Virus record (IMG/VR): IMGVR_UViG_2534681833_000008
DNA length: 28,381 bases
Strand: one strand, 5' to 3'
Source: a virus
Lineage: Duplodnaviria > Heunggongvirae > Uroviricota > Caudoviricetes
Shown here: piece by piece, positions 1 through 3,070 of the stretch
Layout: each line of letters starts with the position of its first letter
Position numbering within the stretch: position 1 is the stretch's first letter
Program-made: the position numbers and the translations under genes
The notes under the pieces: generated by a model
What the model was told of the DNA's origin: nothing
Seen by the model: the letters and a program-made list of their open reading frames with translations, nothing else
Databases searched by the model: none

Positions 1-52
1 CGAAGTTATTAGGTCTGAAGAGGAGTTTACGTCCAGCTGCGCATAAAAATCA

Positions 53-390: not shown

Positions 391-600
391 ATGGCTTTCA
401 TTCCACCAACCATCGACGACGTTAGACATTGCTCTAACGCTTTATCTGTAGACCCCGCCGAAACCGACGCTGCCCGCGCCATTGCTGAACACTACTCAAA
501 GATATCCAATCAGGAGTACCGCATCACCCAAGACGACCTGGATGATCTCACTGACACAATCGAATATCTCATGGCCACTAACCAGCCAGACTCACAATAA
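391..600 (+). CDS. coi: Coi, C1 inactivator (69 aa)
   Basis: ATG at 391 with GTGAGG Shine-Dalgarno; 69-aa acidic ORF directly upstream of c1 and downstream of C1 operators, the arrangement of P1 immC. Confidence 0.65.
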   Translation: MAFIPPTIDDVRHCSNALSVDPAETDAARAIAEHYSKISNQEYRITQDDLDDLTDTIEYLMATNQPDSQ

Positions 601-710
601 ATGCACTAATAAATCTATTATTTTCGTTGGATCCTTCTATAATGGTGGCCAACAACTCCCAGTGTAATCCGCTGTGAGTTGTTGGCCATGTCAATTCTGG
701 AGGAGGATCA

Positions 711-1535
711 ATGATAAATTATGTCTACGGCGAACAACTGTACCAGGAGTTCGTCAGCTTCAGGGATCTCTTTCTAAAAAAAGCTGTTGCACGCGCCCAA
801 CACGTTGATGCCGCCAGCGACGGTCGTCCTGTACGCCCGGTTGTCGTTCTGCCGTTCAAAGAAACTGACAGCATTCAGGCTGAAATTGATAAATGGACTT
901 TAATGGCGCGGGAACTGGAACAGTACCCAGACCTCAATATCCCAAAGACTATTTTATATCCAGTGCCTAACATCCTTCGCGGTGTGCGTAAGGTTACAAC
1001 TTATCAGACAGAAGCTGTGAACAGCGTCAACATGACCGCTGGCCGCATTATTCATCTGATTGATAAGGACATTCGCATCCAGAAAAGCGCGGGGATCAAT
1101 GAGCACAGTGCGAAATACATAGAGAACCTGGAAGCAACAAAAGAGCTAATGAAGCAGTACCCGGAGGATGAAAAATTCCGTATGCGTGTACACGGCTTTA
1201 GCGAAACAATGCTGCGCGTCCATTACATTTCCAGTAGCCCTAACTACAATGATGGTAAATCAGTTAGTTACCATGTGCCGCTGTGTGGTGTGTTTATCTG
1301 CGATGAAACTCTCCGTGATGGAATCATCATCAACGGTGAATTCGAGAAAGCAAAATTTAGCCTTTATGACTCTATAGAACCGATCATCTGCGACCGCTGG
1401 CCGCAGGCAAAAATATATCGCCTGGCAGATATTGAAAATGTAAAAAACAAATTGCCATCACTCGCGAAGAGAAAAAGGTCAAATCAGCCGCATCAGTTAC
1501 GCGCAGCCGTAAAACTAAGAAGGGGCAGCCAGTAA
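711..1535 (+). CDS. c1: C1 repressor of lysogeny, C-terminus altered by apparent -1 frameshift in an A6 tract
   Basis: ATG at 711 with GGAGGAGG SD. N-terminus MINYVYGEQLYQEF matches the P1 C1 repressor as remembered. ORF is 274 aa; one extra A in the run at 1442-1447 would give 283 aa ending at TAG 1559-1561, the length I recall for P1 C1. Confidence 0.85.
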   Translation: MINYVYGEQLYQEFVSFRDLFLKKAVARAQHVDAASDGRPVRPVVVLPFKETDSIQAEIDKWTLMARELEQYPDLNIPKTILYPVPNILRGVRKVTTYQTEAVNSVNMTAGRIIHLIDKDIRIQKSAGINEHSAKYIENLEATKELMKQYPEDEKFRMRVHGFSETMLRVHYISSSPNYNDGKSVSYHVPLCGVFICDETLRDGIIINGEFEKAKFSLYDSIEPIICDRWPQAKIYRLADIENVKNKLPSLAKRKRSNQPHQLRAAVKLRRGSQ

Positions 1536-1585
1536 ACGACAACCCCGAAAGCGCGCAATAGTTTCTATCCGGCATGGTCAATGAG

Positions 1586-3070
1586 TTATTCATTAAGCCA
1601 TGCCAGAGCTTCATCAACCTGCGCTTCGTCTTCGACGCTAAGCACTTCATCCTGGGGAACATAATCCGCCAGCATAGCGAAACAATATGTATCCCAATGG
1701 TCTGGTGAGTGCAGGTTGAGTTTTTTCTTCATATCCTCCTTACTCATCACCTTCCATTGACCTGCGGAGTTAATCCCTACAGGGATTTTCGACGCTTCCT
1801 CAATAGTTTCATTACCCTTATCCAGTCTCATACGACCTGATTTTACGGCCTCTGCGGCTTGAACGTTGGCATAAGCACGCTTATCAAAGTACAGGCTCTT
1901 ATCTTCACGGCTATGCATCTTTTTACCCCAGCGTATACGCTGTACGGTAATACCATAATACTCGTACATCAGATCCGCCGTTGCTTTACCCAGGCCATCG
2001 CCGTCTATCGCTATGGTGATATTTGGGAATCGCTCAGGATTACATTCTGCGAAAATTTTGGCGGCAAGCTGCGTTTCTGTAACGTCTGTGTATTCCAGCA
2101 TTCGATAGTTGATTACACGGCGTTTATTTCGCTGGCCGGACACCATCATGATATTGATAACTGACTTATCCCGTCCCGTACCACCAGCAACGTCCACACA
2201 TGCAAGCCAGCCCCATCCTTTGGCAATCTTAACTTTCCGCCGCGTTGCACGTTCAACCTCATCACGTCCAAGAAGGAAGCCGTCCTGTGATTTAGGGAAT
2301 AGGCCACGCACCTTAATCATGTACATAGGGTTATCACGCCCGCCGTACTCCGCCAGCTTCATTTTGATAAATTCTGGCGTTACCAGCGGTGATTCCTCAC
2401 TGTTAAGCGTGATCGCCGTATAAACGCCATCTGGGTTACCAGGACGCTTGGCCAGTTTATGGTGAGTATCGTAGAAATAGCCGCTTGGGCGTGTAGGCTG
2501 TGACAGTAATAAGATGCGGTTATCCTGTCCGGTAAGAGCACCGGTGATGATACCGAAAGCTCTATCACTGACACCGGAGGCTTCATCGATAATATACAGA
2601 AGATGATCTGCGTGTTCACCGGCGAGAGCTTCTTCACTTCCCAGACGAAAGCCCTTCGGTACTACAGTCCATACACCTTTACCAGTAACCTCATAGAAAG
2701 CGGTTTCTGTCAGAACAAAATAATCAGCAAGCCATGGAAAACGGCTGGTGGCAGTAGCCCAGTTTATCTTGATGTACTTGAATATACCGGTCATTACCTG
2801 CTGAATTTTGTTCGCAACGATAATGGCGCGGGCACCGGGATACATGATTATGAACAACATGATCATGATAGAAGTCATGTCTGATTTCCCGGTACCGTGA
2901 CCAGACGAAACAGATGTCTTGCTACCCTGTTCCTGCACAGACTCAATAATCAGATCCTGCTGCCAGGTAGGTGTTTTGCCGAACAAAACATCAGCGGCAG
3001 CAATCCAGTCATAACGATATAGCGCCACCAGCTCGCGCCAACGTGGATCCGTTACGCAACTTCTGGCCAT
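1586..3070 (-). CDS. pacB: Terminase large subunit PacB (494 aa)
   Basis: Walker A-like SGHGTGKS near the N-terminus; start ATG overlaps the pacA stop (TAATG); size as remembered for P1 PacB. Confidence 0.9.

What the first reader, a model, noticed from the sequence alone, without database searches (positions are those of the whole stretch)
1437..1561. c1 repressor gene is frameshifted in an A6 homopolymer, replacing the last 33 residues
The c1 ORF is 274 aa. Adding one A to the run at 1442-1447 restores a frame that ends at TAG 1559-1561 and gives 283 aa, the length I recall for P1 C1. Either this is a homopolymer sequencing error or the prophage encodes a C-terminally altered master repressor, which would affect lysogeny maintenance.
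Basis: partly seen in the sequence, partly recalled or inferred. Interest (0 to 1): 0.5.

Follow-up and report, generated by a model that had tools for sequence, protein, structure and literature searches.

The report
Probable sequencing-error frameshift in c1
The P1-type master repressor gene c1 really is written one A short (A6, not A7) in this contig. The pattern across public sequences points to a base-calling error in an old draft assembly, not an altered repressor, so the finding is most likely ordinary.

Summary
c1 (711-1535) reads as 274 aa. One extra A in the run at 1442-1447 gives the canonical 283-aa P1/P7 C1, ending at TAG 1559-1561. The count in the title is wrong: 38 wild-type residues (246-283) are replaced by 29, not 33.

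The window is the whole NCBI draft contig AIGE01000043.1. Two near-identical complete plasmids carry A7 and an intact c1. Against them the window has only 3-4 substitutions in 28 kb, but three further single-A insertions. Those insertions split two tail genes and occur in no other public contig.

A6 is absent from almost all P1-like records:
- 1 of 702 plasmids and 1 of 701 complete E. coli replicons (the same record)
- 0 against 57 metagenome contigs
- 0 against 4 species-representative genomes
- 2 against at least 120 IMG/VR contigs

Every A6 case falls in one of two groups. One group is long-read-style records with several other 1-nt indels in or next to c1. The other is four draft assemblies with related accession prefixes (AIFV, AIGE, AIGF, AKNH), on three different c1 haplotypes.

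The wild-type tail is conserved in length and key residues in homologues down to 54% identity.

Verdict: about 80% a site-specific homopolymer error, about 20% a real mutation. Raw reads or Sanger sequencing would settle it. Interest is low.

The parts
711..1535 (+). c1 ORF as written: 274 aa. Residues 1-245 are identical to P7-type C1; residues 246-274 are an out-of-frame tail.
   Evidence: Pfam PF27008 Phage_P7_repressor_C1 on this product. Same 90% cluster as RPC1_BPP7.
1442..1447 (+). A6 homopolymer, A7 in references. This is the site of the 1-nt deficit. In the c1 frame it reads A_AAA_AAC (1442-1448).
1448..1561 (+). Displaced wild-type reading frame. It encodes the canonical C1 tail QIAITREEKKVKSAASVTRSRKTKKGQPVNDNPESAQ, with stop TAG at 1559-1561.
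   Evidence: Alignment to homologues.
391..600 (+). coi (C1 inactivator, 69 aa), upstream of c1.
   Evidence: Annotated coi at the equivalent position of P1 NC_005856 and phiW39.
600..643 (+). Equivalent of the P1 operator Oc1ab and promoter Pc1 in front of c1.
   Evidence: P1 annotation at L001 300-343, where locus 301 corresponds to window 601. No indel in this stretch.
1586..3070 (-). pacB (terminase large subunit, 494 aa), convergent with c1 and intact.
23859..23874 (+). Two private +A insertions (AA at 23859-23860 where relatives have one A; an extra A at 23874). They split a 242-aa tail gene into the 23485-23865 stub and an out-of-frame remainder.
   Evidence: The stub product occurs only on this contig. 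phrog_1906 tail protein.
25473..25478 (+). A6 where NZ_CP122822.1 has A5. It splits a 338-aa tail gene into 24989-25555 and 25464-26006.
   Evidence: The stub product occurs only on this contig. phrog_1390 tail protein.

Best explanation
The A6 tract is most likely a site-specific homopolymer under-call fixed into the consensus of an old draft assembly. The window is the entire contig AIGE01000043.1 of GCA_000249775.2. On this reading the plasmid prophage in the cell carries A7 and makes the normal 283-aa P1/P7-type C1 repressor, which maintains lysogeny in the usual way. Shown: the base is missing in the record, and the allele distribution tracks data source and not phylogeny. Inferred: the cause is base-calling. 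I recall this project as 454-based, but I could not verify that.
For: (1) Two complete plasmids, NZ_CP122822.1 and pSvP1_F NZ_MN510446.1, match the window at about 99.98% and both carry A7 and an intact 283-aa c1.
(2) Against those relatives the window has only 3-4 substitutions in 28 kb, but five single-A indels. Three of them (23859, 23874, 25473) break two conserved tail genes. Their truncated products occur on no other contig in an index of 153 billion gene positions. That indel-to-substitution ratio is a sequencing-error signature.
(3) A 48-nt probe that can only seed on A6 finds 2 phage records, 1 of 702 plasmid records and 1 of 701 complete E. coli replicons, the last two being the same record. 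All three carry further 1-nt indels in or next to c1: one more in ON470617.2, three more inside c1 plus one just downstream in NZ_CP123964.1, and six more in ON470615.2.
(4) Exact-pattern scans, A6 against A7: IMG/VR 2 against at least 120, metagenomes 0 against 57, species-representative genomes 0 against 4.
(5) The repaired protein is on at least 1000 contigs. The 274-aa form is on 6, and a one-lineage variant of it on 2.
(6) All remaining A6 records are AIFV01000003.1, AIGE01000043.1, AIGF01000032.1 and AKNH01000072.1, plus re-assemblies of three early SRA runs. They carry three different c1 nucleotide haplotypes, with substitutions within 40-100 nt on either side of the run. The allele therefore arose independently at least three times within one batch of assemblies and essentially nowhere else.
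(7) One of those re-assemblies (SRR063725) has an extra T4-to-T3 deletion in pacA that is absent from the deposited assemblies of the same lineage.
(8) 454 error rates are position-specific and can exceed 50% at some positions, with homopolymers a main factor (PMC3116506).
(9) The wild-type tail keeps its length and residues S259, R265, K268, P279 and S281 in homologues down to 54% identity, so the normal frame is under selection.
Against: The error would have to be remarkably site-specific. The seven other homopolymers of 7 nt or more in the window, including A7 at 776-782 inside c1, agree with at least one of the two complete plasmids. AKNH01000072.1 (11.5 kb compared) and AIFV01000003.1 (8.3 kb compared) show no other indel. 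Independent re-assemblies of SRR094143 and SRR497695 reproduce A6, so A6 is what most reads in those runs say. I could not verify the sequencing platform or see reads, because the project paper is not held. An A7 tract is also a real mutational hot spot; PMC4066793 notes a high indel rate at such runs.
Confidence: 0.8

Rival explanations
1. Real mutation. Replication slippage removed one A from the A7 tract in these strains, either in nature or during long culture-collection storage. The lysogen then makes a 274-aa C1 with a different, still basic, 29-residue tail. That protein must remain at least partly functional, because the plasmid prophage is stably carried.
For: A7 runs are slippage hot spots (PMC4066793). 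A6 is reproduced by deposited assemblies and by independent re-assemblies of three runs. Two assemblies with A6 show no other indel over 8-11 kb. Other runs of 7 nt or more in the window are correct. Both tails are net basic, +6 against +9. The last ~20 residues are predicted disordered, in a low-confidence model.
Against: This needs at least three independent identical mutations, confined to one batch of assemblies. Meanwhile about 1400 complete records, 57 metagenome contigs and at least 1000 other contigs carry A7. The wild-type tail is conserved across the family. The frameshift falls inside a predicted helix at 238-262 and introduces a proline.
Confidence: 0.13
2. Decaying prophage. All the indels in the contig are real, and the P1-like element is a defective plasmid that is accumulating frameshifts in c1 and in tail genes.
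For: Four genes are interrupted or shortened in 28 kb. Loss of tail genes would make loss of tight repression less costly.
Against: Only 3-4 substitutions accompany five indels, all of them of A. Real decay gives many more substitutions than indels. lpa, pacA, pacB and the other genes compared are intact and match the relatives. AKNH01000072.1 is identical over the 11.5 kb compared and shares A6, but the tail-gene stubs are unique to this contig.
Confidence: 0.04
3. Real and leaky. A6 creates the in-frame heptamer A_AAA_AAC (1442-1448), the IS1-type -1 slippery site. A -1 ribosomal slip there would restore the wild-type tail. The cell would then make mostly the 274-aa form plus a little near-wild-type 283-aa C1, giving a hypomorphic or switchable immunity.
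For: The heptamer is in the correct frame: GTA AAA AAC, with codons starting at 1440, 1443 and 1446. A_AAA_AAC is a proven -1 frameshift motif in an IS cluster without an established stimulator (PMC4066793). A -1 slip is exactly what compensates a 1-nt deletion; this is inference from the sequence.
Against: There is no downstream structure: the RNA fold z-score is 0.06. I see no Shine-Dalgarno-like stimulator upstream. The motif is absent from all trustworthy relatives, so it is not conserved. The reading also depends on A6 being real in the first place.
Confidence: 0.03

Closest known systems
C1 master repressor of phages P1 and P7 (RPC1_BPP7 / RPC1_BPP1; Pfam PF27008 Phage_P7_repressor_C1)
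   Same: Residues 1-245 are identical to the P7-type protein. After adding one A the whole 283-aa sequence is the one named RPC1_BPP7. The neighbourhood is the same: loxP, imcA/B, coi, operator and promoter, c1, then convergent pacB.
   Different: As written, the last 38 residues are replaced by 29 out-of-frame residues.
Homopolymer indel artefacts of pyrosequencing and nanopore assemblies
   Same: A single-base length change in a run of 6 nt or more. Other 1-nt indels break conserved genes in the same contig. The allele is confined to particular data sets. Nanopore-style P1-like records (ON470617.2, ON470615.2, NZ_CP123964.1) show the same A7-to-A6 change.
   Different: It is unusually reproducible at this one run, while other 7-mers are called correctly. 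The platform is unverified.
IS1 insAB' A6C (A_AAA_AAC) and dnaX A_AAA_AAG -1 programmed frameshift sites
   Same: An identical slippery heptamer, in the correct register.
   Different: There is no stimulatory element and no conservation. The motif exists only in the suspect records.

Membership tests
P1/P7 C1 repressor (PF27008) | Sequence match to the family over the core | tested here: met
   PF27008 on the product. Same 90% cluster as RPC1_BPP7. Residues 1-245 identical.
P1/P7 C1 repressor (PF27008) | Full length of about 283 aa with the conserved C-terminal tail (S259, R265, K268, P279, S281) | tested here: not met
   As written the product is 274 aa with an unrelated tail. The feature is met if one A is added.
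P1/P7 C1 repressor (PF27008) | ImmC context: loxP, imcA/B, coi, Oc1 operators and Pc1, c1, convergent pacB | tested here: met
   Collinear with annotated P1 NC_005856 and phiW39. loxP at the contig start.
P1/P7 C1 repressor (PF27008) | Binds 17-bp asymmetric operators and represses lytic genes | not testable with these tools
   Needs a DNA-binding or immunity assay.
Homopolymer sequencing or assembly artefact | Indel lies in a mononucleotide run of 6 nt or more | tested here: met
   A6 against A7 at 1442-1447.
Homopolymer sequencing or assembly artefact | Near-identical independent assemblies carry the intact allele | tested here: met
   NZ_CP122822.1 and NZ_MN510446.1 carry A7 at about 99.98% identity.
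Homopolymer sequencing or assembly artefact | Same contig has other 1-nt indels that break conserved genes, in excess over substitutions | tested here: met
   Private +A at 23859, 23874 and 25473, against 3-4 substitutions.
Homopolymer sequencing or assembly artefact | Allele distribution follows data source, not phylogeny | tested here: met
   A6 is found only in AIFV, AIGE, AIGF and AKNH drafts (three haplotypes) and in multi-indel long-read-style records.
Homopolymer sequencing or assembly artefact | Other long homopolymers in the same data are also miscalled | tested here: not met
   The seven other runs of 7 nt or more in the window agree with at least one of the two complete plasmids.
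Homopolymer sequencing or assembly artefact | Raw reads show length heterogeneity or strand bias at the run | not testable with these tools
   No read access. The platform is unverified.
Programmed -1 ribosomal frameshift site | X_XXY_YYZ heptamer in the zero frame | tested here: met
   A_AAA_AAC at 1442-1448. The motif is proven in an IS cluster.
Programmed -1 ribosomal frameshift site | Stimulatory downstream structure or upstream SD-like element | tested here: not met
   Fold of 1449-1530 gives z = 0.06. No GGAGG-like element upstream by reading.
Programmed -1 ribosomal frameshift site | Motif and two-frame layout conserved among relatives | tested here: not met
   Relatives carry A7 and a single 283-aa frame.

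The most novel reading that the evidence does not exclude
A6 is real. The A7 tract in c1 would then be a recurrent slippage hot spot producing a repressor with a swapped basic tail. That defect would be partly rescued by -1 ribosomal frameshifting on the newly created IS1-type A_AAA_AAC heptamer. P1-like plasmid prophages could then toggle between full and hypomorphic immunity.
Probability: 0.03. Interest if true: 0.45.

Novelty: not a real feature. Interest (0 to 1): 0.08.

Why it matters
If it is an artefact, which is the likely case, it matters only for data quality. This draft contig and its sister assemblies carry a false c1 'variant' protein (EHV63647.1, EHV94271.1, EHV96381.1, EIQ58086.1). 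This contig also carries two falsely split tail genes. None of these should be read as biology. If it were real, it would be a natural C-terminal variant of the P1 master repressor. It would show whether the conserved tail is needed for repression or for inactivation by Coi or the antirepressor. That would be of moderate interest to P1 specialists only.

Tried and rejected
- I tried to read the project paper for the sequencing platform, by DOI (10.1128/JB.00426-12) and by PMC id (PMC3370608). I also tried the P1 genome paper (PMC523184) for what is known about the C1 C-terminus. None is held.
- Text searches for the accession, strain or assembly, and for EPECa12, gave nothing useful.
- The literature search on the C1 C-terminus gave only reference lists.
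- The PDB sequence search for C1 found no solved relative.
- The AlphaFold2 model from 11 homologues is poor: mean pLDDT 57, pTM 0.36. I use it only as a weak hint of a helix at 238-262 followed by a disordered end. I ran no fold search on it.
- With 86/87-nt probes, identity bands alone could not separate 'A6 plus a SNP' from 'A7'. I replaced them with a 48-nt probe that can only seed across A6, validated on the phage collection.
- I looked for near-identical complete references for the AIFV and AIGF lineages, to count their private indels. The best matches were only 99.2% and 97.9% identical, so that test was not possible.
- I first counted the A8 run at 17739-17746 as another error. I rejected that because the resulting 401-aa ORF is on 17 independent contigs.
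- A downstream frameshift-stimulating RNA structure was not found.

Full report
**What is in the sequence**

The window opens 9 nt before the end of a loxP site. In NZ_CP122822.1 loxP is at L007 3976-4009, and the window aligns from 4001. It then runs through the P1 immC region: coi (391-600), the Oc1ab operator and Pc1 promoter equivalent (about 600-643), c1 (from 711) and the convergent pacB (1586-3070).

The A run is exactly 1442-1447 (A6). The ORF 711-1535 is 274 aa. The frame from 1448 encodes QIAITREEKKVKSAASVTRSRKTKKGQPVNDNPESAQ and stops at TAG 1559-1561.

Comparison with an intact C1 shows that divergence starts at residue 246. The 38 wild-type residues are replaced by 29, so the '33' in the title is a miscount. 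The repaired 283-aa protein is the sequence named RPC1_BPP7.

**Where the window comes from**

An exact-protein look-up identifies the window as the entire NCBI draft contig AIGE01000043.1 of GCA_000249775.2, which is 28,381 nt. I recall the AIxx prefixes as the DECA diarrheagenic E. coli collection drafts (Hazen et al. 2012), and I recall those as pyrosequencing-based. Neither point could be verified here.

**Comparison with nearest relatives**

Two complete plasmids match the window at about 99.98%. They are NZ_CP122822.1 (ETEC1731, pig, Belgium) and pSvP1_F NZ_MN510446.1, apart from IS insertions in those plasmids. Both have A7 and an annotated 283-aa 'phage repressor protein C1'.

Over 28 kb the window differs from them by 3-4 substitutions and five single-A indels:
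- The c1 A7-to-A6 change.
- +A at 23859/23860 and +A at 23874. Together these split a 242-aa tail gene (phrog_1906).
- A5-to-A6 at 25473-25478. This splits a 338-aa tail gene (phrog_1390).
- A8 against A7 at 17739-17746.

The two tail-gene stubs occur on no other contig in the gene index, so those indels are private to this assembly.

The 17739 difference is a real polymorphism. The 401-aa ORF is on 17 contigs from unrelated sources.

More frameshifting indels than substitutions, all of the same base, is what consensus errors look like. It is not what divergence looks like.

**How common A6 is**

| Collection | A6 | A7 or other |
|---|---|---|
| Plasmids, 86-nt A6 query (exact match) | 0 of 702 | 336 exact to the A7 version |
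| Complete E. coli replicons, 86-nt A6 query (exact match) | 0 of 701 | not scored |
| Phages, 48-nt A6-only probe | 2 (ON470617.2, ON470615.2) | – |
| Plasmids and complete E. coli, 48-nt probe | 1 (NZ_CP123964.1, same record in both) | – |
| IMG/VR, exact pattern | 2 | at least 120 |
| Metagenome contigs, exact pattern | 0 | 57 |
| Species-representative genomes, exact pattern | 0 | 4 |

The 48-nt probe can only seed across A6, and I validated it on the phage collection.

The three records it finds are visibly indel-ridden. ON470617.2 has one more single-base deletion, in the A7 run at 776. NZ_CP123964.1 has three more inside c1 and one just downstream, and PGAP marks its c1 'frameshifted'. 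ON470615.2 has six more in and around c1.

At the protein level, the intact sequence is on at least 1000 contigs and the 274-aa form on six.

**Who carries A6**

Apart from the long-read-style records, the carriers are:
- AIGE01000043.1 (the window).
- AKNH01000072.1 (E. coli EPECa12). It is 100% identical to the window over the 11.5 kb compared.
- AIFV01000003.1.
- AIGF01000032.1.
- Re-assemblies of three early SRA runs: SRR063725, SRR094143 and SRR497695.

The two IMG/VR hits are the AIFV and AIGF contigs.

These represent three different c1 nucleotide haplotypes. AIFV differs at 833, 848, 866, 911 and 1346. AIGF differs at 866, 1481, 1484, 1500 and 1517. Those substitutions lie within 40-100 nt on either side of the run, so shared descent or a recombined patch is unlikely.

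The same 1-nt loss therefore appears independently at least three times within one batch of drafts with related accession prefixes, and essentially never in more than a thousand other records. A natural polymorphism would not sort by data source.

The SRR063725 re-assembly also has a T4-to-T3 deletion in pacA that the deposited assemblies of the same lineage lack. That points to homopolymer-noisy reads.

Published work on 454 Titanium data shows that the error rate is position-specific, exceeds 50% at some positions, and has homopolymers as a main factor (PMC3116506).

**What does not fit**

The error would have to be very site-specific.
- The other seven runs of 7 nt or more in the window agree with at least one of the two complete plasmids. 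This includes the A7 at 776-782 inside c1.
- AKNH and AIFV show no other indel over 11.5 and 8.3 kb.
- Independent re-assemblies reproduce A6, so it is the majority call in those runs.

This keeps a real mutation alive at roughly one chance in five.

**If it were real**

The wild-type tail keeps its length (282-283 aa in most homologues). K245, S259, R265, P279 and S281 are invariant, and K268 nearly so, in homologues down to 54% identity. The normal frame is therefore under selection.

A low-confidence AlphaFold2 model (mean pLDDT 57) puts a helix at 238-262. The shift would rewrite that helix and insert a proline.

No solved structure exists for a relative, and I found no accessible literature on the C-terminus.

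A null c1 should be lethal to a lysogen whose lpa, pacA and pacB are intact (inference from established P1 biology), so a real A6 allele would have to be tolerated.

One curiosity: A6 creates A_AAA_AAC in the c1 frame. This is the IS1-type -1 slippery heptamer, a proven frameshifter without a known stimulator (PMC4066793). A -1 slip is exactly what would restore the wild-type tail. However, there is no downstream structure (z = 0.06), no conservation, and no evidence that the allele exists in cells.

**Verdict**

The best-supported reading is an assembly or base-calling artefact in a 2012-era draft contig (about 0.8). The rivals are a real slippage mutation (about 0.13), a truly decaying prophage (about 0.04) and a leaky frameshift allele (about 0.03). 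The question is decidable in an afternoon from the raw reads or one Sanger reaction. Interest is low.

Noticed in passing
window 23859-23874: Two private single-A insertions 15 nt apart. Both sit just 5' of a CTGAAA motif (GCA[A]CCTGAAA and GCAT[A]CTGAAA). They split a 242-aa tail gene (phrog_1906) that is intact in both near-identical plasmids. The 126-aa stub is unique to this contig.
   Followed up: yes
window 25473-25478: A6 where NZ_CP122822.1 has A5. It splits a 338-aa tail gene (phrog_1390) into the 24989-25555 and 25464-26006 ORFs. The 188-aa stub is unique to this contig.
   Followed up: yes
window 17739-17746: A8 here and in NZ_CP122822.1, against A7 in pSvP1_F. This gives a 401-aa rather than a 420-aa PmgS-like head-morphogenesis ORF. 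The 401-aa form is on 17 contigs from unrelated sources, so this length difference is a real polymorphism near the 5' end of the gene.
   Followed up: partly
window 1-9: The contig starts inside loxP (the last 9 nt of the right arm). The AKNH01000072.1 and AIFV01000003.1 contigs and the pSvP1_F record also begin or end inside loxP, within 10 nt of the same point. Possible causes are Cre-mediated heterogeneity at loxP in the sequenced populations, or a hybrid-plasmid junction.
   Followed up: no
window 9726-15773: A complete type I restriction-modification cassette (hsdM 9726-11282, hsdS 11279-12535, hsdR 12597-15773) sits inside the P1-like backbone. It is shared with the porcine ETEC plasmids. 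One relative has IS1203 in hsdR, and the other has IS91 copies inserted at about 8.6 kb.
   Followed up: partly
window 1286-1288: C1 residue 193 is Pro (CCG). The P1 reference genome NC_005856, which carries the temperature-sensitive c1.100 allele, has Leu (CTG) here. The window carries the Pro seen in phiW39 and in every homologue aligned.
   Followed up: partly
L003 (OP279344.1) and L002 (ON470617.2), c1: Other deposited P1-family phage genomes carry single-base deletions elsewhere in c1: at window-equivalent 736, and in the A7 run at 776. In those records c1 is annotated as split or as 'hypothetical'. False c1 frameshifts are therefore a recurring database problem.
   Followed up: partly
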